From Escherichia coli (GTDB lineage Bacteria; Pseudomonadota; Gammaproteobacteria; Enterobacterales; Enterobacteriaceae), in NCBI RefSeq assembly GCF_048403405.1, contig NZ_CP183129.1: a stretch of 64,000 nucleotides of DNA; one strand, written 5' to 3'. This document shows positions 40,055 through 60,979 of the stretch, one piece after another. How positions within the stretch are numbered: the stretch's first letter is position 1; every line of letters begins with the position of its first letter. The position numbers and the translations under genes were made by a program. The notes under the pieces were generated by a model. That model was not told the DNA's origin. It saw only the letters and a program-made list of their open reading frames with translations, and made no database searches.

Positions 40055-40945
40055 CTAAATACGCACTTTAAGATAAGTCAGCCCCGGATGAAGCCAGTAA
40101 GCCGGCACTTTTTTAAAGGGTGGAGTATTAAAATCACGAAGAAGAGCCTCCCGCACAATTGCATCCTTATCAGCACCACTGGCCAGCGCTTCAATCTCAG
40201 CGGCTACCTGAAGATATCCCATGCAACGGCCAACGCGCTTCATCAGCCCCTGCTTTTTATTGTTCTTCAGGTAATCAATGGCAAATTCAATGAGCTCCTC
40301 ACTGTGCTGGTGCGATGGAGGTGTTACTTTCCCATTTTCTGAGATGGTTATTTTCCCAGCATCACCGGATACAACAAAGGATGGCCGGTTACACTCCCAT
40401 TCCGGGTCACTGAAATTATCATTATGAATACTGAAACACTCTGCGAGATTTCTGCTCATCACTTTCCGACAATAATCGTCAAACGCAGCAAACTGCTTTT
40501 CATCGCCAGAAGGCACCAATATCGACCATTTCTTATTCAGCTCAACGACGTAGCTCTCCAGTTTTTCAATACGTGATTCAACATCATCTTTTTCTGACCG
40601 CAGTGTTGACGGCGGCATCTTCAGAGAACAAGTAATTCTTCCCGGTAGCTTTCCTTTGTAGGTTATCAACATATCCTGCGCCTCTAAAATTACGGGGCGC
40701 TTTTCCGGCAACGGTTCGTTCCATTCACATAACCCGGCAGCAACATCCATGAAAAACTGCTTCGCCTGCTTTTTCGCCTCAGCTTCGTAAAACTCCAGCG
40801 TGGCACCTTCAGTACGGTCAAGACTAATCGCCACATCTGGCAACAACAGCGACGCTTGCCCGTCACCTTCCGACTTCACAGTAACAGTAACCTTATCCCC
40901 GTAATTATTTATCCCCTTAACAACCAGTTCATATTTTTTATTCAT
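40055..40945 (-). CDS. hypothetical protein (296 aa) between holin and endolysin
   Basis: Start abuts holin stop with GGGGAGAG RBS; no family recognised by inspection. Confidence 0.55.
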   Translation of the reverse strand: MNKKYELVVKGINNYGDKVTVTVKSEGDGQASLLLPDVAISLDRTEGATLEFYEAEAKKQAKQFFMDVAAGLCEWNEPLPEKRPVILEAQDMLITYKGKLPGRITCSLKMPPSTLRSEKDDVESRIEKLESYVVELNKKWSILVPSGDEKQFAAFDDYCRKVMSRNLAECFSIHNDNFSDPEWECNRPSFVVSGDAGKITISENGKVTPPSHQHSEELIEFAIDYLKNNKKQGLMKRVGRCMGYLQVAAEIEALASGADKDAIVREALLRDFNTPPFKKVPAYWLHPGLTYLKVRI

Positions 40946-40949
40946 CACT

Positions 40950-41165
40950 TTACTCTCCCCGCGCCGCCTTACGCCGGTCCTCTTTGATTTTGAAATACAG
41001 GTTAGTCAGATATGTCAGCAGCCCAAACAGCAGACTCCCCAGCACGCCTATTGCCGCCCACTGAGACGGGGAAACCCTGTCCAGCAACTGCAGGAACCAG
41101 TAGCCCGTTCCCACCGCTGACGTGGTGTATGACACACCTGTTGTGATTTTTTCCATCTGGTACAT
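40950..41165 (-). CDS. S: pinholin (S21-type holin, dual-start MYQM)
   Basis: 71-aa ORF nearly collinear with phage 21 S ([45 protein letters not shown]); two in-frame starts. Confidence 0.85.
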
Positions 41166-41472
41166 ACCCCGTCTCCCGTTATCCGGAAGCTGACAACAAT
41201 AAAAAAGCCACCAGTTAAGTACTGATGGCTCTGATAACTCATGCAGGCGTCTCAGACGCCCCACTGACACTACCGGTGAGTTTAACGATACCTTCCATTT
41301 GACTGGCTCACTTTTTATGATGATGCCGGTGCATTTATCTCCAGCACCAGACTTTCTATCTCAACGCCATACGTTGCATTTTTGGTAATATCCGTCAGCG
41401 TCAGTGCATTTAGTCCCACTGCCAGACCGTCTTTTATGGCCTGGAATGCCGGGCCAGTACGATGACGTAGTA

Positions 41473-41661
41473 TCACTCCGGCTCAGTTGCACCACTGACC
41501 ACCACATCACCTTCTGCTGCAATCGCCTGCATCAGGGTATAAGGGGTTATGGCCACCGGACTACCAAACGGCTGCCAGCCCTCTTTCAGTTTATGTGTCA
41601 GCTTTTCCGCAAGATCTGACGGCGACGCCGCCCTGACAACATCATAGTGTTTAAATGCCAT
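41473..41661 (-). CDS. small conserved prophage protein (DUF1737-like, assignment unverified)
   Basis: 62-67-aa ORF upstream of holin, a position commonly occupied by a small conserved ORF in lambdoid lysis cassettes. Confidence 0.45.
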   Translation of the reverse strand: MAFKHYDVVRAASPSDLAEKLTHKLKEGWQPFGSPVAITPYTLMQAIAAEGDVVVSGATEPE

Positions 41662-41921
41662 GGTTCTTTCCACCATCTGAAAAATGATTCTTTAAAATAC
41701 CTGACATGTAATACAGAAAAAACACAAAACCATACCTTAAATAAAAACCTCATCATCAAGCAGATATGCATGGATAAACTACAAGACGAGATATAAACCA
41801 CCCTGCATTTAAATAAACAATAAACAACATCAGAAAAATAATTCTGCTCTATGGTTTACAATCAAAAATATCATTTATACTTTTCAGAACATCACCAGCA
41901 AGGCATAAACAAGGAAACTAA

Positions 41922-42257
41922 ATGAAGTGGATTGTGATTGATACAGTTATCCAGCCATCATGCGGAATATCTTTTTCAGTCATATGGAGTAAAATAAAAT
42001 TAATAATCTGGTATCAATCGGATGCTTTCTTACCTCCTGAAAGTATATTTACACTGACTCACACAGGTATCATGCTCAATAACAAAGTGCTACCTGTAAC
42101 CATTTACAACGTAGTACCATTCAATAAAACATTCTGGAATTTAATCAAAAACAGCCAGGAATGCCCTACAAATACAGATAACGTATTGAATGAATGCTTT
42201 AATAACCGTTGCACTCTGCAAATATGTCCTTATGGGCTAAAACAACAAAGTCCATAA
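41922..42257 (+). CDS. hypothetical Cys-containing protein (111 aa) in AT-rich island, opposite strand to late operon
   Basis: AAGGAA RBS 6 nt before ATG; very AT-rich upstream region; no recognisable family. Confidence 0.4.
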
Positions 42258-42270
42258 GGAGTTTACTCAC

Positions 42271-42313
42271 ATCTGACAAAATCAATATAAACAGCCCCTC
42301 CGGAGAGGGGCTG
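42271..42313 (-). terminator. intrinsic terminator (minus strand) upstream of lysis cassette
   Basis: Hairpin CAGCCCCTC-CGGA-GAGGGGCTG followed on minus strand by TTTATATTGATTTT. Confidence 0.5.
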
Positions 42314-42610
42314 GAGAGTGGCGCTATGTGCCATTGCATGGTGCCGGGTGCCTCCCGGTGAATTCAGTACCAGCACCTGAATCCGCGATTATCCCATATA
42401 CCTACTCGCTGATTGCCCCTCCGCACAGGGGGATTCACCATGCCAGTTTCTTTTAACAAACTCCCCGCAAACCAGACAACAGTCAACCGCCTGAATTGTG
42501 AAGTATTTAAAAATTTCTCCCGCTAACTGATACCCGGCTAACAGTCTGGCGTTTTCTTTTTCAGCAACGGGAAAGCAACAACCACCACACCCACCAGCCG
42601 CCCATTTACC

Positions 42611-42947: not shown

Positions 42948-43036
42948 AAAAAAAACCACCTGGCGGTGGTTTTTTCTTACTTTGCCATCACGTACAAAAT
43001 CGGCAAAATATCAGATTTATACGAAACATACGCGAT

Positions 43037-43732
43037 TTAATTGACTTTTGCAATATCTCGTCGTGAAAAGGTCGCTTTTTGTTGCGCTCTTATTTTCACG
43101 GAGCAAATCAAGGATTCTCTATCGAGGCGCTTAAAAATATCGCACATCTCACGCCAGTAGTTCGCATAATTATGGCTCCAGTTATCAGGCTTAACTCCAC
43201 ACAGTCTGGCAAGCTCCTGTCTCTGGTAGACCTCACACCCGGTAACCCATCCTCTGACATCCTGTGCCGCCAGCCAGATCAACTTCTTCACACGCTCCAG
43301 CGTTTTCACTGCAATTTTTCTGGAGCCGGACTGAGTTTTAAATTCACTCCACCCCCACTGCGTTATCGCGATCTGATGCTCCCAGCAAATGTTTCCGCCA
43401 TAACACCACAACAACCACGCCTTCTGATGTTCTTCCAGTTCCAGAACAGCACGCCGCCACGATGATGTTGCAAACTCAACAGGACTGACCAGCGCAATTG
43501 ATGAGCCTTTCGCCAGTGATTGTTTACCCTGGATCGGGGGATTATCCCGCGTGATCATTTTTCCGGTTACCTCATCGCGGTAACGAATTTTTTTGCGTCT
43601 GTAACGCCCTGTATCGAACAGGGCATTTTCCTGCCAGGCTTCCAGCTGGCATTTTGTCGACCCACTGAGATCTGCAGTGGCAATCATGAGTTGCTCACGA
43701 ACAAACTGTAAATACTGGTTATTCATGCACAC
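43037..43732 (-). CDS. Q: late antiterminator Q-like protein (QuuQ/phage-82 type)
   Basis: 231-aa ORF directly upstream of candidate pR'/tR' region and downstream of rusA; Cys/His-containing; family assignment by position and recalled similarity. Confidence 0.6.
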   Translation of the reverse strand: MCMNNQYLQFVREQLMIATADLSGSTKCQLEAWQENALFDTGRYRRKKIRYRDEVTGKMITRDNPPIQGKQSLAKGSSIALVSPVEFATSSWRRAVLELEEHQKAWLLWCYGGNICWEHQIAITQWGWSEFKTQSGSRKIAVKTLERVKKLIWLAAQDVRGWVTGCEVYQRQELARLCGVKPDNWSHNYANYWREMCDIFKRLDRESLICSVKIRAQQKATFSRRDIAKVN

Positions 43733-45960: not shown

Positions 45961-46116
45961 TTACTCCTCAGGTTCGTAAGCTGTGAAGACAGCGACCTCC
46001 GTCTGGCCGGTTCGGATTCGTACCTCGCAGAGGTCTTTCCTCGTTACCAGTGCCGTCACTATGACGGTTAAACAGATGACGATCAGGGCGATTAACATCG
46101 CCTTTTGCTGCTTCAT
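45961..46116 (-). CDS. hok: Hok/Gef-family type I toxin (51 aa)
   Basis: Translation MKQQKAMLIALIVICLTVIVTALVTRKDLCEVRIRTGQTEVAVFTAYEPEE is a canonical Hok-family peptide; not in the ORF track (below size cut-off). Confidence 0.85.
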   Translation of the reverse strand: MKQQKAMLIALIVICLTVIVTALVTRKDLCEVRIRTGQTEVAVFTAYEPEE

Positions 46117-46129
46117 AGCCTGCTTCTCC

Positions 46130-46230
46130 TTGACCTTTCGGTCCGTAAGAGGCTAATCTCTATGTGTCGCATAGATATGGCCTCAGATTAATGTTAAGCG
46201 TCTTGCAGGACGCGTAATGTTAACTGGGGC
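46130..46230 (+). ncRNA. sok: expected Sok-type antisense RNA / mok leader region of hok locus (location approximate)
   Basis: By analogy with hok/sok loci the antisense RNA overlaps the hok mRNA leader; exact ends not determined. Confidence 0.3.
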
Positions 46231-46374
46231 TTTTCTCTATCTGCCTTTTGGTGTTCATGCCTGAGACAGATAGCCTCAAGCACCCGCAGTTATTCTACTT
46301 AACTAAGATTTCCCCGCAAACCGTTTTTGTCCGGCACAGTAAATATCCAACTAAACCAATGGCGTTCGCTGTAT

Positions 46375-54282: not shown

Positions 54283-54584
54283 TTTATTCACAGGTGAGGT
54301 AGAGTGCGTGCGCCGGACACGGATAAGAATCCGGCACTGACAGTTTACTAAAAAGGATATATCCCTGAAAAGTCAGGGCATAACACGAAAGCGCCCGGCG
54401 AAGTTAGTCTCTCTGTATAGGTCGTCGTTAAATTTAATTCGATCGTGCGCTTCCGGTTGTGGCAATCCGCGAAATGGCGCGGCGGTAAGTATGGCTGGGG
54501 TTTCCTCCATTGCTCCAGAAAATGCACCGGGTTGTCAGGTTGACCATACGCTTAAGTGACAGCCCCGCCACAATACCCATGTGT

Positions 54585-54637
54585 AGTCTTTGGTGGCATC
54601 AGTTCTACTCCGTGACTGCTCTGCCACCCTTTTTAAA
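54585..54637 (+). ncRNA. dicF: DicF-like small RNA (3' stem-loop/terminator region conserved)
   Basis: TTTGGTGGCATCAGTTCTACTCCGTGACTGCTCTGCCACCCTTTTT closely matches recalled DicF 3' portion, with compensatory stem changes GGCGG/CCGCC to GGTGG/CCACC. Confidence 0.55.
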
Positions 54638-54812: not shown

Positions 54813-55667
54813 ATGTTGAATGTAGCTATTGAAAACCAGAACGGGTGGAATTATAGTGCACCTGCACCTCATAAAACGGGTGCCGGGCGTGGAAACCCGG
54901 AATTCAATCAAGCGCATAACCGCGCTCAGGCGGTTTTTTTATGCGTCAAGCACAGCCACATTCAGATTATGGTGGGGCGTGCAGGGCAGCTGCAAGGCTG
55001 GCCGGATTCTTGGTTGACCGGTATTTCCACCCCTGTACGCCTCACCACCCTTATGGTCGTGGAAAACCTTGGTGGTGAGTTATTAATACTCAACCAAGAG
55101 GCTGCCATTATGGCTACTATCCCTACCCTTTCTCACCCTGACGTAACCATCGAAAATGGTCGCGCTGTCACTACGTCTGTTGCGGTTGCAGAGTTCTTCC
55201 GCAAAATGCACAAGGACGTTCTGCGCAAAATTGAAACGCTAGAATGCTCTGAAGATTTTAACGAGCGCAATTTTACGCCCGTTACCTACACCGACGCCAA
55301 AGGCGAAAAACGCCCCATGTACCAAATCACCAAAAACGGCTTCGTTTTCCTGGTGATGGGGTTCACAGGTAAAAAAGCCGCAACTTTCAAAGAAGCCTAC
55401 ATCGCTGAGTTCGATCGCATGGAGGAAGAACTGCGCCAGAATAACGCCCCGTCTCCCGACAAAATGATTCACGGGGACGGACGCACCCTGGTTATCCGTC
55501 TCGACGAACACGGCAATATCAAATTCACTGAAACCGTTCCTGACGGCGCAATGGTCTGCACCCTGGATACCTTCCGGTTTTATCTGGAGAAACAAGGATG
55601 GACTCTTGTAAACCGGAGCGCAATTAAAAATATGACTGTGGAGCAATTGCTAAAAATTCATTGTTGA
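54813..55667 (+). CDS. Rha-family phage regulatory protein (possible antirepressor); start uncertain
   Basis: C-terminal 185 aa carry Rha-like motifs (AVAEFF.K.H..VLR.I ... MGFTGKKA..FKEAYI.EFDRMEEEL); alternative start at 55110. Confidence 0.65.
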   Translation: MLNVAIENQNGWNYSAPAPHKTGAGRGNPEFNQAHNRAQAVFLCVKHSHIQIMVGRAGQLQGWPDSWLTGISTPVRLTTLMVVENLGGELLILNQEAAIMATIPTLSHPDVTIENGRAVTTSVAVAEFFRKMHKDVLRKIETLECSEDFNERNFTPVTYTDAKGEKRPMYQITKNGFVFLVMGFTGKKAATFKEAYIAEFDRMEEELRQNNAPSPDKMIHGDGRTLVIRLDEHGNIKFTETVPDGAMVCTLDTFRFYLEKQGWTLVNRSAIKNMTVEQLLKIHC

Positions 55668-58661: not shown

Positions 58662-58931
58662 ATGAGCGAACAGTACCTGATAACGCTCGACGAGTGGAAA
58701 CCAAAACGGTTCAGTCTCCCAATAACAAACACTACCCTGGTGAAATACGGAAAACTAGGATACATCGTTCCAAGACCACAAAAAATTCGTGGGCGTTGGC
58801 TGATAGATCGCCGAGCAGTATTTGTTGGGCCTGGTGAAACGGGAATTGCGCCGGAAATTCATACTGGCGATGATGATGCACTGAAGGAGATTTTAACTCA
58901 TGTCACCGAGGCCACGAAAAAACAGCACTGA
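58662..58931 (+). CDS. xis: excisionase Xis-like
   Basis: Small basic ORF overlapping int start; pattern L.TL.EW ... TV.R ... P.P.K.GR similar to lambda Xis. Confidence 0.6.
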   Translation: MSEQYLITLDEWKPKRFSLPITNTTLVKYGKLGYIVPRPQKIRGRWLIDRRAVFVGPGETGIAPEIHTGDDDALKEILTHVTEATKKQH

Positions 58932-60018
58932 CGTAGCCGGTCTTTACGAAAAGTTTGATCGCAGAACTGGCAGAGTTTACTACCAGTATAAAAATCCTGT
59001 GACTGGAAAATTTCACGGACTCGGAACAGACAAAGGTAAGGCAGAAAAAATCGCTTCCACAGCCAATCAGCGAATAGCTGCAGCAGAAGCTGAATATTTC
59101 ATGCGCAAAATTGATGAAAGTCCGTCAGCAACAAAACGTCGGGGTATCAGATTAAAGGCATGGGTTGATCGATATCTGAAAATACAGGACACGCGACTGA
59201 AAAATGGAGATATTGCAGCTACAACTCACAAAGAAAAAACTCGAATGGCTGCATACCTGGTTTCCCGTCTGGGAAACCACCCATTGAAAGAACTGGAAGT
59301 AAGAGACTTTGCATTAATACTGGATGAGTGGCTGGATAAAGACATGGTCAGCACAGCGAGAGTAAATCGTGGATTATGGGTTGATATTTATAAAGAAGCA
59401 CAGCATGCAGGGGAAGTTCCTCCTGGATGGAATCCTCCGGAGGCTACCCGTAAACCGATCCCTAAAGTAACCAGAGCCAGGCTCACCATGGAAGACTGGC
59501 AAAAAATTTACAATGCAACGCCTGAAAAACACTTTATCCGTAACGCAATGCTTCTTGCGATTGTTACTGGTCAGCGCCGTGATGACATTTGCCACATGCG
59601 TTTTTCAGATGTGTGGAACGAACACTTGCATATCACCCAGGGAAAAACCGGAATGCGTCTGGCGTTACCGCTTACACTACGCTGTGATGCCATTGGGATA
59701 ACGTTAAAAGAAGTTATTGATGGGTGCCGAGACAGAATATTAAGTCCATATCTAATCCATAGTCGGCACCAGAAACAACCGAAGCCGATGAGTAAAGACA
59801 ACCTGAGCGACTACTTTGCCAAAGCACGGGATCTGGCTGGGATAATTCCACCAGCAGGAAAAACTCCGCCAACATTTCATGAACAACGCTCTCTATCAGA
59901 ACGGCTGTACCGTGCACAGGGTATCGATACAAAAACATTACTAGGACATAAAGTCCAGGCAACCACCGATCGCTATAACGATACTCGAGGTCAGGAATGG
60001 GTTAAGTTGGTTATTTGA
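58900..60018 (+). CDS. int: tyrosine integrase (lambda Int family)
   Basis: 372-aa ORF; Arg-His-Arg-Tyr catalytic residues (VTGQRRDD, HEQRSLSERLY, LLGHK...TDRYNDTRGQEW); adjacent to attR. Confidence 0.9.
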   Translation: MSPRPRKNSTDVAGLYEKFDRRTGRVYYQYKNPVTGKFHGLGTDKGKAEKIASTANQRIAAAEAEYFMRKIDESPSATKRRGIRLKAWVDRYLKIQDTRLKNGDIAATTHKEKTRMAAYLVSRLGNHPLKELEVRDFALILDEWLDKDMVSTARVNRGLWVDIYKEAQHAGEVPPGWNPPEATRKPIPKVTRARLTMEDWQKIYNATPEKHFIRNAMLLAIVTGQRRDDICHMRFSDVWNEHLHITQGKTGMRLALPLTLRCDAIGITLKEVIDGCRDRILSPYLIHSRHQKQPKPMSKDNLSDYFAKARDLAGIIPPAGKTPPTFHEQRSLSERLYRAQGIDTKTLLGHKVQATTDRYNDTRGQEWVKLVI

Positions 60019-60184: not shown

Positions 60185-60979
60185 ATGATCGGTCGACTGC
60201 TTCGCGGCGGTTTTATGACCGCTATCTACGCGTACCTGTATATTCCAATCATTATTTTGATTGTGAACTCGTTCAACAGCTCGCGCTTTGGCATCAACTG
60301 GCAGGGTTTTACCACTAAATGGTATAGCCTGCTGATGAACAACGACAGTCTGTTGCAGGCAGCTCAGCATTCATTGACGATGGCGGTGTTTTCAGCGACG
60401 TTTGCTACGCTTATCGGTTCACTGACTGCAGTTGCGCTGTACCGTTATCGCTTTCGCGGTAAACCGTTCGTTAGCGGAATGCTGTTCGTGGTGATGATGT
60501 CGCCAGATATTGTGATGGCGATTTCGCTGCTGGTGCTGTTTATGCTGCTGGGTATTCAGCTTGGCTTCTGGTCGCTGCTGTTCTCGCATATCACCTTCTG
60601 CCTGCCATTTGTGGTGGTGACAGTGTATTCGCGCCTGAAAGGTTTTGACGTGCGAATGCTGGAAGCGGCGAAAGATCTCGGTGCCAGCGAATTTACCATT
60701 CTGCGAAAAATCATTCTGCCACTGGCAATGCCAGCGGTAGCGGCGGGCTGGGTGTTAAGCTTTACCCTGTCGATGGACGATGTAGTAGTTTCTTCGTTCG
60801 TCACCGGACCAAGCTATGAAATTCTGCCGTTAAAAATTTATTCGATGGTCAAAGTCGGCGTATCGCCGGAAGTTAACGCGCTGGCAACCATATTACTGGT
60901 GCTGTCGCTGGTGATGGTAATTGCCAGCCAGCTTATTGCTCGTGATAAAACGAAAGGTAACACAGGGGACGTTAAATGA
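60185..60979 (+). CDS. potC: spermidine/putrescine ABC transporter permease PotC
   Basis: 264-aa multi-TM permease; overlaps potD start. Confidence 0.9.
   Translation: MIGRLLRGGFMTAIYAYLYIPIIILIVNSFNSSRFGINWQGFTTKWYSLLMNNDSLLQAAQHSLTMAVFSATFATLIGSLTAVALYRYRFRGKPFVSGMLFVVMMSPDIVMAISLLVLFMLLGIQLGFWSLLFSHITFCLPFVVVTVYSRLKGFDVRMLEAAKDLGASEFTILRKIILPLAMPAVAAGWVLSFTLSMDDVVVSSFVTGPSYEILPLKIYSMVKVGVSPEVNALATILLVLSLVMVIASQLIARDKTKGNTGDVK

What the first reader, a model, noticed from the sequence alone, without database searches (positions are those of the whole stretch)
41690..42313. AT-rich island with an opposite-strand ORF between Q region and lysis cassette
In the slot where Stx phages carry toxin genes, this prophage has a very AT-rich segment with a 111-aa + strand ORF (good RBS, several cysteines, hydrophobic N-terminus) running against late transcription, followed by a GC-rich hairpin. 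It is not a Shiga toxin. Independent expression from its own promoter would make it a lysogenic-conversion candidate.
Basis: partly seen in the sequence, partly recalled or inferred. Interest (0 to 1): 0.45.

Follow-up and report, generated by a model that had tools for sequence, protein, structure and literature searches.

The report
Prophage gene iraL, a known RpoS stabiliser

Summary
Window 41691-42290 is the lowest-GC 600-bp stretch of the 64 kb (32% against 51%). It carries an intact 111-aa + strand ORF (41922-42257) with a good ribosome-binding site, running against the late operon Q -> DUF1737 -> holin.

The ORF is iraL. Its protein is 100% identical to IraL of E. coli CFT073 (c1429), which sits in the same prophage between potB and potC. 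IraL is a published RssB anti-adaptor: it binds RssB and so stabilises RpoS in log phase.

One correction: the GC-rich hairpin (42292-42313) has its T-tract on the minus strand. It is the terminator of a convergent, known sRNA, STnc100 (Rfam RF02076, 42283-42472).

Verdict: already known, low interest. Untested side leads:
- A PhoP-box-like repeat is conserved about 70 bp upstream of the start site.
- A third IraL-like clade lies directly after stx2 in Stx2c/2a phages and is mostly unannotated in phage records.
- Four C-terminal cysteines are invariant across the family.

The parts
41691..42290 (.). AT-rich island (32% GC): the iraL promoter region plus the coding sequence
   Evidence: Lowest-GC 600-bp stretch of the window, z = -3.66
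41810..41826 (-). PhoP-box-like direct repeat TGTTTA-TTGTT-TATTTA (1 mismatch to (T/G)GTTTA-N5-(T/G)GTTTA), at -79..-63 from the iraL start site, in reverse orientation. Function untested.
   Evidence: It is one of only two matches with at most 1 mismatch in 64 kb; the other is the perfect box upstream of phoP at 4826-4842. The same position and orientation are kept in phage 2851 (1 mismatch) and in L008 (0 mismatches), although those cassettes are only about 70% identical.
41855..41860 (+). Inferred -35 hexamer TTTACA (15-bp spacer, suboptimal)
   Evidence: My inference from the published start site. The hexamer is identical in CFT073. Phage vB_EcoS-640R1 has TTTATA at this place.
41876..41881 (+). 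Inferred -10 hexamer TATACT
   Evidence: It ends 7 nt before the mapped start site. A TAT(A/G)(C/A)T hexamer aligns at this place in all nine phage-type homologue loci.
41889..41889 (+). iraL transcription start site, by homology to the CFT073 5'-RACE result
   Evidence: The published leader ACATCACCAGCAAGGCATAAACAAGGAAAC matches 30/30 starting at 41889.
41911..41915 (+). Shine-Dalgarno sequence AAGGA
   Evidence: Read directly from the sequence
41922..42257 (+). iraL coding sequence, 111 aa, RssB anti-adaptor
   Evidence: 100% amino-acid identity to CFT073 IraL (WP_000871291.1), with 2 synonymous nucleotide differences. NCBIfam NF007393 scores 162 bits against a cut-off of 121. PDB 8TWD IraM matches at E = 9e-32. 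The AF2 model matches 8TWD at target-normalised TM-score 0.90.
42283..42472 (-). STnc100-family sRNA gene (Rfam RF02076), convergent with iraL
   Evidence: 132 bits against a gathering score of 47, full-length model match 1-206. The same pairing is seen in CFT073, phage 2851, L008 and vB_EcoS-640R1.
42292..42313 (-). GC-rich hairpin: the intrinsic terminator stem of STnc100. The T-tract (TTTATATTGATTTTG) follows on the - strand only.
   Evidence: Terminator scan, Rfam structure line, folding of both strands. The stem is perfectly conserved in phage 2851 although the surrounding DNA is 70% identical.
41473..41676 (-). Truncated DUF1737 gene, the first late gene after the island (full-length DUF1737-esterase in Stx phages)
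   Evidence: Pfam PF08410, E = 4e-17. PGAP flags it as missing its C-terminus. Full-length versions are seen.
40950..41165 (-). Class II holin (start of the lysis cassette)
   Evidence: Pfam PF04971; PGAP annotation
43037..43732 (-). Antiterminator Q (source of late transcription that would read antisense through iraL)
   Evidence: Pfam PF06323, E = 2e-82

Best explanation
The island is the iraL moron of a lambdoid prophage integrated between potB and potC. iraL is transcribed in the lysogen from its own sigma-70 promoter (start site at 41889), independently of and opposite to the Q-dependent late operon. Its product, IraL, is a small cytoplasmic protein with a PmrD-like beta-barrel. IraL binds the receiver (N-terminal) domain of the adaptor RssB, so RssB cannot hand RpoS to the ClpXP protease. 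RpoS therefore becomes more stable during exponential growth, which primes the general stress response. This is lysogenic conversion by a regulator rather than a toxin. The GC-rich hairpin after the gene is the terminator of a convergent Hfq-type sRNA gene (STnc100 family), which forms the other half of this accessory cassette. Shown in the literature for the identical protein: the start site, RssB binding, and the effect on RpoS level and half-life. Inferred here: that this strain's copy behaves the same way, and the positions of the -10 and -35 hexamers.
For: The protein is 100% identical to CFT073 IraL, the coding sequence differs at 2 of 336 nt, and the RefSeq protein accession is the same, WP_000871291.1. 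The prophage lies between potB and potC, as in CFT073. The promoter and leader differ from CFT073 at only three positions (41861, 41888, 41919), and the 5'-RACE leader matches 30/30. NCBIfam IraM scores 162 bits against a cut-off of 121. PDB 8TWD IraM matches at E = 9e-32. The AF2 core has pLDDT 81-90 and matches 8TWD at target-normalised TM-score 0.90, rmsd 1.2 A, with PmrD structures next. All five IraM residues that contact the RssB N-terminal domain (I4, I6, W22, K26, I42) are identical. The C-terminal-domain and linker clusters carry substitutions (T13S, L75I, H63N, I64V), which fits the published binding to the N-terminal domain only. Published function (PMC4045071): deleting iraL lowers log-phase RpoS and cuts its half-life from about 5 to about 2.5 min. 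A fragment from -100 through the coding sequence raises RpoS in K-12. IraL and RssB copurify. The -10 hexamer is conserved across divergent homologues. The gene is present at 95% identity or more in about 1414 records, roughly a quarter of the 5426 complete E. coli genomes.
Against: No expression data exist for this strain. The promoter has a 15-bp spacer, and the consensus scan did not call it. Three nucleotide differences from CFT073 lie in the spacer, at -1 and in the leader. AT-rich DNA of this kind is a typical H-NS target, so the copy could be largely silent under some conditions. No canonical terminator follows iraL on its own strand.
Confidence: 0.93

Rival explanations
1. The gene is functionally an IraM: an anti-adaptor induced by PhoP/PhoQ under Mg2+ starvation, not a constitutive log-phase factor. 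The published log-phase expression would then be only its basal level.
For: A PhoP-box-like repeat lies at 41810-41826 with 1 mismatch. The only other match this good in 64 kb is the real box upstream of phoP. The repeat keeps its position and orientation in cassettes that are about 70% identical, and it is a perfect consensus in the Stx-phage locus L008. The chance of a site with at most 1 mismatch in 300 nt of this composition is about 4%, and of a perfect site about 0.2-0.3%. K-12 IraM is PhoP-dependent (PMC10948607). The IraL paper never tested PhoP, Mg2+ or H-NS. The published complementing fragment starts at -100 and so includes the box.
Against: Nucleotide similarity to K-12 iraM is confined to the coding sequence, and the promoters are unrelated. 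The box is in reverse orientation about 70 bp upstream, not at -35. The homologous loci are not independent samples. AT-rich DNA produces such motifs easily. iraL is expressed in LB without added stress.
Confidence: 0.3
2. The copy in this strain is transcriptionally silent cargo (H-NS-silenced or promoter-impaired) and contributes nothing to the lysogen.
For: Upstream GC is 29%. The -35 to -10 spacing is suboptimal. There are three differences from the CFT073 promoter. The paper itself doubted expression of a second iraL allele carrying a -35 point mutation. iraL mRNA rises 1.6 log2 at 37 C against 23 C in CFT073 (PMC12890032), a pattern typical of H-NS-controlled genes (that link is my inference).
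Against: Both inferred hexamers are identical to those of the expressed CFT073 allele. The ORF is intact and the exact 801-bp segment is 100% identical in many genomes. The native-promoter fragment works even in K-12.
Confidence: 0.1
3. The ORF encodes a small secreted, cysteine-rich toxin or effector, as the hydrophobic N-terminus, the cysteines and the toxin-like position might suggest.
For: The position is near the stx slot. The protein has five cysteines and a hydrophobic first 10 residues.
Against: There are no Pfam matches at all, hence no RIP or SLT_beta match. The N-terminus is beta-strand 1 of a cytoplasmic PmrD-like barrel. The protein is identical to a cytoplasmic RssB-binding protein.
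Confidence: 0.01

Closest known systems
IraL (c1429, formerly YcgW) of uropathogenic E. coli CFT073, described by Hryckowian et al. 2014, mBio 5:e01043-14 (PMC4045071)
   Same: Identical protein (111/111 aa). Same prophage insertion between potB and potC. The block from window 40610 to 42598 is 94% identical. Same leader and promoter hexamers. Same convergent STnc100.
   Different: Three single-nucleotide differences in the promoter and leader. The Q module upstream is different: here a PF06323 Q with no tRNAs, in CFT073 another Q plus an IS200 and three tRNAs.
IraM (YcgW/ElbA, b1160) of E. coli K-12, with crystal structure 8TWD in complex with RssB (PMC10844676)
   Same: Same family (NF007393) and same PmrD-like fold. 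59% amino-acid identity. The RssB N-terminal-domain contact cluster is identical. All four C-terminal cysteines are conserved.
   Different: Promoter and flanks are unrelated; similarity stops at the coding-sequence ends. K-12 iraM lies beside the e14 remnant with no STnc100 next to it. IraM binds both RssB domains and is induced by Mg2+ starvation, whereas IraL binds the N-terminal domain only and acts in log phase.
IraL-like ORF of Stx2c/Stx2a-converting phages (e.g. phage 2851, NC_049943, 24233-24562)
   Same: Same slot and strand relative to DUF1737 and the holin. Same convergent STnc100 with an identical terminator stem. The upstream repeat and -10 are conserved. 75% amino-acid identity to IraL and 65% to IraM.
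   Different: It lies directly after stx2B. It is 107 aa long. It is unannotated in most phage records, and PHROGs lists the family as of unknown function. It occurs in 236 genomes, mostly O157:H7. I found no functional study in the searched library.
STnc100 (Rfam RF02076), which overlaps EcOnc27/sRNA103, the Hfq-binding sRNA just downstream of stx2B, and is related to PasD
   Same: Full-length covariance-model match including the terminator hairpin. Same position relative to the late genes as in Stx2 phages.
   Different: No stx gene precedes it here. Its promoter and expression in this prophage were not established.

Membership tests
IraM/IraL/RssC RssB anti-adaptor family (NCBIfam NF007393) | Whole-protein score above the curated cut-off | tested here: met
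   162 bits against a cut-off of 121, covering residues 1-110
IraM/IraL/RssC RssB anti-adaptor family (NCBIfam NF007393) | PmrD-like antiparallel beta-barrel plus a C-terminal helix | tested here: met
   AF2 model has strands 2-66 and helix 69-77 at pLDDT 81-90. Foldseek best match is 8TWD_A (IraM) at target-normalised TM-score 0.90, rmsd 1.2 A, followed by the PmrD structures 4HN7, 2JSO and 2RQX.
IraM/IraL/RssC RssB anti-adaptor family (NCBIfam NF007393) | Conservation of the residues that contact RssB in 8TWD | tested here: met
   Cluster I is 5/5 identical. Cluster II is 3/5 identical with T13S and L75I. Cluster III is 2/4 identical with H63N and I64V.
IraM/IraL/RssC RssB anti-adaptor family (NCBIfam NF007393) | Physical binding to RssB and stabilisation of RpoS | not testable with these tools
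   Published for the identical protein from CFT073: copurification, two-hybrid, and RpoS half-life
IraL as distinct from IraM | At least 95% nucleotide identity to CFT073 iraL over the whole coding sequence (the criterion of PMC4045071) | tested here: met
   334/336 nt identical, against 71% to K-12 iraM
IraL as distinct from IraM | iraL-type promoter and leader, as mapped by 5' RACE | tested here: met
   The leader matches 30/30 from 41889, and the upstream 100 bp differ from CFT073 at 2 positions
IraM proper (K-12 type) | K-12 iraM promoter region and chromosomal context next to e14 | tested here: not met
   No similarity outside the coding sequence; the context differs
Phage moron (autonomous accessory unit in a prophage) | Own promoter active in the lysogen | tested here: inconclusive
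   The sequence is equivalent to the mapped CFT073 promoter, but expression in this strain was not measured
Phage moron (autonomous accessory unit in a prophage) | Own terminator | tested here: inconclusive
   The hairpin at 42292-42313 has no T-tract on the + strand. It is oriented for the - strand sRNA.
Phage moron (autonomous accessory unit in a prophage) | Atypical composition, and insertion between conserved phage genes | tested here: met
   32% against 51% GC. The unit lies between Q and DUF1737/holin, and the flanking Q modules vary between phages.
STnc100 sRNA (Rfam RF02076) | Covariance-model score at or above the gathering threshold, full length | tested here: met
   132.4 bits against 47, model positions 1-206
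Shiga toxin (RIP A subunit, SLT_beta B subunit) | Pfam PF00161 or PF02258 domain | tested here: not met
   No Pfam hit for the ORF even at E = 10. These domains are found in the neighbouring genes of L008.

The most novel reading that the evidence does not exclude
The IraL-family gene may be one half of a conserved two-gene accessory cassette of lambdoid phages. The cassette would consist of an anti-adaptor gene with a conserved upstream PhoP-box-like repeat, convergent with the Hfq-binding sRNA STnc100/EcOnc27. It sits directly after stx2 in Stx2c/2a phages. There the anti-adaptor ORF is a third clade, mostly unannotated in phage records and listed as of unknown function in PHROGs. If that clade is a working, PhoPQ-responsive RssB anti-adaptor, Stx2 lysogeny would itself raise RpoS. 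That could explain the high log-phase RpoS reported in iraL-negative EHEC/STEC strains.
Probability: 0.3. Interest if true: 0.5.

Novelty: already known. Interest (0 to 1): 0.18.

Why it matters
For the finding itself the value is a correct label: this prophage changes host physiology by stabilising the general-stress sigma factor RpoS, a trait linked to uropathogenic E. coli and Shigella (PMC4045071). RefSeq names the gene "IraM" and PHROGs calls the family "unknown function", so phage annotation pipelines miss it. The side leads matter more. If the related ORF next to stx2 also blocks RssB, and if the conserved PhoP-like box works, Shiga-toxin phages would carry a stress-response regulator tied to a host-sensing two-component system, alongside an Hfq sRNA already associated with clinical outcome (PMC12711010).

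Tried and rejected
- Pfam scans of the ORF found nothing at E <= 0.01 or at E <= 10, although the protein database's precomputed field lists PF11183 (PmrD) for homologues. I relied on NCBIfam, PDB and fold comparison instead.
- The sigma-70 consensus scan did not call the experimentally mapped promoter, because its spacer is 15 bp.
- No tRNA genes are present anywhere in the window, unlike in Stx phages and CFT073.
- The supplementary figures of the IraL paper (promoter alignment, the JJ1886 iraL2 allele) are not held. I therefore could not confirm which hexamer the authors called -35. The TTTACA to TTTATA variant in phage vB_EcoS-640R1 may be their "-35 point mutation", but that is my guess.
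- The secreted cysteine-rich toxin idea was rejected on fold and identity.
- The hairpin as iraL's own terminator was rejected as the primary reading, because the T-tract is on the other strand and the hairpin is part of the Rfam match.
- AF2 gave no ordered structure for the Cys-rich tail (pLDDT below 50 for residues 84-111), and the tail alone has no Pfam match.
- Literature searches for IraM, IraL or ycgW together with Stx, O157 or prophage found no study of the Stx-phage homologue in the held library. This does not prove that none exists.
- I did not establish the late promoter pR' or the promoter of STnc100.

Full report
**1. Checking the observation**

- The stretch 41691-42290 has 32.3% GC against 51.2% for the whole window. 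It is the lowest-GC 600-bp stretch in all 64 kb (z = -3.66).
- It contains one intact + strand ORF, 41922..42257, of 111 aa. AAGGA lies 6 nt before the ATG, and the protein has five cysteines.
- All surrounding phage genes are on the - strand:
  - RusA;
  - antiterminator Q, 43037-43732 (PF06323);
  - a truncated DUF1737 gene, 41473-41676;
  - a class II holin, 40950-41165;
  - a DUF1327/YdfR-like ORF;
  - the lysozyme.
- A 9-bp hairpin with 7 G-C pairs lies at 42292-42313.

**2. What the ORF is**

The ORF is iraL.
- Megablast of 41600-42400 against complete E. coli genomes gave 100% matches annotated "anti-adapter protein IraM". At least 80% of the 801-bp segment is present in 1428 of 5426 genomes.
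- NCBIfam NF007393 (IraM subfamily) scores 162 bits against a cut-off of 121.
- The PDB chain 8TWD_A (IraM residues 1-78, crystallised with RssB) matches at E = 9e-32.
- The literature describes a paralogue, IraL, in uropathogenic strain CFT073 (PMC4045071). I fetched the CFT073 locus. Its product carries the same RefSeq accession, WP_000871291.1, and is identical to the window ORF at 111/111 aa, with 2 synonymous differences in 336 nt.
- Identity to K-12 IraM is 66 of 111 aligned columns, in line with the published 58.9%. At the DNA level the similarity to K-12 stops at the ends of the coding sequence.
- An AlphaFold2 model built from a 16-member family alignment gives a confident beta-barrel plus helix for residues 1-80. 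Its best structural match is 8TWD_A (target-normalised TM-score 0.90, rmsd 1.2 A), followed by PmrD structures.

**3. Genomic context**

- The window is almost identical to E. coli strain 7/2 (NZ_CP023820, reverse complement of 1251915-1315914).
- Mapping that annotation onto the window places a lambdoid prophage of about 48 kb between potB (about 10877-11740) and potC (about 60185-60979), with the integrase at about 58900-60018. This is the "potB island" position of CFT073.
- The block 40610-42598 (YdfR fragment, holin, DUF1737, iraL and about 340 bp beyond it) is 94% identical to CFT073, but the Q modules differ. The window has a PF06323 Q and no tRNAs. CFT073 has another Q, an IS200 and three tRNAs.

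**4. How it works**

Steps shown in the literature for the identical protein (PMC4045071):
- 5' RACE in log-phase CFT073 gave the mRNA 5' end ACATCACCAGCAAGGCATAAACAAGGAAACCA.
- Deleting iraL lowers log-phase RpoS in CFT073 and in Shigella sonnei, and cuts the RpoS half-life from about 5 to about 2.5 min.
- A fragment running from -100 through the coding sequence restores this effect, and also raises RpoS in K-12.
- IraL and RssB copurify in both directions. In two-hybrid assays IraL binds only the N-terminal receiver domain of RssB.

Steps inferred here:
- The first 30 nt of that leader match the window exactly from 41889, which places the start site there.
- I infer a -10 hexamer TATACT at 41876-41881, and a -35 hexamer TTTACA at 41855-41860 with a 15-bp spacer. 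Both are identical in CFT073.
- The window differs from CFT073 only at 41861 (spacer), 41888 (position -1) and 41919 (leader).
- A TAT(A/G)(C/A)T hexamer aligns at the -10 position in every phage-type homologue examined, down to 60% protein identity.
- The 8TWD paper lists three IraM contact clusters:
  - The cluster that touches the RssB N-terminal 4-5-5 face (I4, I6, W22, K26, I42) is identical in IraL.
  - The cluster that touches the RssB C-terminal domain carries T13S and L75I.
  - The cluster that touches the linker carries H63N and I64V.
  - This pattern fits binding to the N-terminal domain only.
- The most likely mechanism is therefore: own promoter, then IraL, then occlusion of the RssB receiver face, then no delivery of RpoS to ClpXP, then higher RpoS in growing cells.
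- Reported regulation in CFT073 includes higher iraL levels in a fur mutant (PMC7157518) and a 1.6 log2 rise in mRNA at 37 C against 23 C (PMC12890032).

**5. The hairpin belongs to something else**

- The terminator scan places the T-tract (TTTATATTGATTTTG) on the - strand. On the + strand the stem is followed by GAGAGTGG.
- Rfam gives a full-length match to STnc100 (RF02076) at 42283-42472 on the - strand, at 132 bits against a gathering score of 47. This hairpin is its terminator.
- STnc100 overlaps EcOnc27/sRNA103, an Hfq-binding sRNA just downstream of stx2B in O157:H7 (PMC12711010; PMC12370729). It has been proposed to be related to PasD (bioRxiv 10.64898/2026.05.13.724894). None of these papers mentions the neighbouring iraL or iraM gene.
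- The iraL stop codon and the sRNA 3' end are 26 nt apart, so the two genes converge on one stem.
- The pairing recurs in CFT073, phage 2851, the Stx locus L008 and phage vB_EcoS-640R1. It is absent beside K-12 iraM and in some divergent loci.
- Whether iraL transcripts stop at this stem or run antisense into the sRNA is unknown.

**6. Relation to the Shiga-toxin slot**

- A tblastn search of phage genomes found 46 records. Four are iraL-type (95-99% identity). Forty-one are 60-80% identical and are mostly Stx2c- or Stx2a-converting phages, usually with no feature annotated there.
- In phage 2851 the gene order is: Q, three tRNAs, stx2A, stx2cB, STnc100, a 107-aa IraL-like ORF on the opposite strand, DUF1737-esterase, then the holin.
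- That whole cassette aligns with window 41504-42501 at 70% identity, and the terminator stem is conserved perfectly.
- Other divergent family members occupy the same slot and strand:
  - after stxAB in L008;
  - after Q and ORF6N in E. albertii;
  - after Q and a methyltransferase in L014.
- So iraL lies beside the stx slot rather than replacing the toxin.
- The 2851-type gene occurs in 236 of 5426 complete genomes, mostly O157:H7. It is 75% identical to IraL and 65% to IraM.
- PHROGs lists the family (phrog_4407) as of unknown function.

**7. Leads that remain untested**

(a) A PhoP-box-like repeat.
- TGTTTA-TTGTT-TATTTA lies at 41810-41826 on the - strand, 63-79 bp upstream of the start site.
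- Allowing at most 1 mismatch, the whole window has only one other match. That is the perfect box at 4826-4842, upstream of phoP, which by mapping the strain 7/2 annotation lies at about 4904-5575. It serves as a positive control.
- The repeat keeps its place and orientation in phage 2851 (CGTTTA-TTCTT-TGTTTA) and is a perfect consensus in L008 (TGTTTA-TTCTT-TGTTTA).
- Shuffles of each 300-nt upstream region give about 4% for a site with at most 1 mismatch, and 0.2-0.3% for a perfect one.
- The loci are homologous and so are not independent evidence. The IraL paper did not examine PhoP, Mg2+ or H-NS.

(b) Invariant cysteines.
- The four C-terminal cysteines, with the pattern CP-x9-C-x4-C-x4-CPxG, are invariant in all 16 aligned family members, whereas C14 is not.
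- This tail was removed for crystallisation and described as less conserved and flexible. AF2 gives it pLDDT below 50.
- A metal site is possible but unsupported by any test here.

(c) A possible link to EHEC.
- The IraL paper noted EHEC/STEC strains with high log-phase RpoS but no iraL.
- The Stx-phage clade is a candidate explanation. This is my inference.

**8. Verdict**

The gene is the already characterised iraL, and the hairpin belongs to the already catalogued STnc100 family. Novelty: already known. Interest is low for the finding itself, with moderate value in the untested leads listed above.

Noticed in passing
window 42283-42472 (- strand): Full-length STnc100-family sRNA gene (Rfam RF02076, 132 bits), convergent with iraL and sharing the hairpin at 42292-42313. 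The same iraL/STnc100 pairing occurs in CFT073, phage 2851, L008 and vB_EcoS-640R1. The sRNA papers I read do not mention the adjacent anti-adaptor gene.
   Followed up: partly
L006 (phage 2851, NC_049943) 5001-5324; also L008 3001-3336: Stx2c/Stx2a-converting phages carry an IraL-like ORF (107-111 aa, 75-76% identical to IraL) on the opposite strand, directly after stx2B and STnc100. Most phage records leave it unannotated, and PHROGs lists the family as of unknown function. It is present in 236 complete E. coli genomes, mostly O157:H7.
   Followed up: partly
window 41810-41826 (- strand); control at 4826-4842 (+ strand): A PhoP-box-like direct repeat lies about 70 bp upstream of the iraL start site. 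It is conserved in position and orientation in divergent phage cassettes and is a perfect consensus in L008. The only equally good match in the window is the real box upstream of phoP, which lies about 37 kb away in the same window.
   Followed up: partly
window 42162-42227 (codons for C81, C92, C97, C102 of IraL): Four C-terminal cysteines in the pattern CP-x9-C-x4-C-x4-CPxG are invariant in all 16 family members aligned, although the tail is predicted to be disordered and was deleted from the crystal structure. This may be a metal-binding knuckle.
   Followed up: partly
window about 10877-11740 (potB) and about 60185-60979 (potC): The prophage of about 48 kb sits inside the potABCD operon, between potB and potC, as in CFT073. 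I did not examine whether potCD expression is affected.
   Followed up: no
window 40055-40948 and 41473-41676 (- strand): Two late-region genes look decayed. The DUF1737 gene is cut to 67 aa (298-668 aa with an esterase domain in Stx phages). The YdfR/DUF1327 gene is flagged by PGAP as missing its C-terminus, although a 297-aa ORF is open here.
   Followed up: no
window 42955-42975 (both strands): A symmetrical A-tract/stem/T-tract hairpin (AAAAAACCACCTGGCGGTGGTTTTTT) lies just downstream of Q and is called as a terminator on both strands. It is a candidate for the late terminator tR' and for the end point of any iraL read-through. The late promoter pR' was not located.
   Followed up: no
window 13061-13259, 46114-46285, 54578-54629, 54864-54940, 54965-55052: Other Rfam matches above gathering score in the prophage: IS009, sok (next to hokD), DicF, isrK and C4 antisense RNA.
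   Followed up: no
L007 (phage vB_EcoS-640R1), upstream region of its iraL-type gene (within 3769-4009): This iraL allele has TTTATA where the window and CFT073 have the inferred -35 TTTACA. It may be the "-35 point mutation" allele (iraL2 of JJ1886) mentioned in the IraL paper. That phage also carries two tandem STnc100 copies.
   Followed up: no
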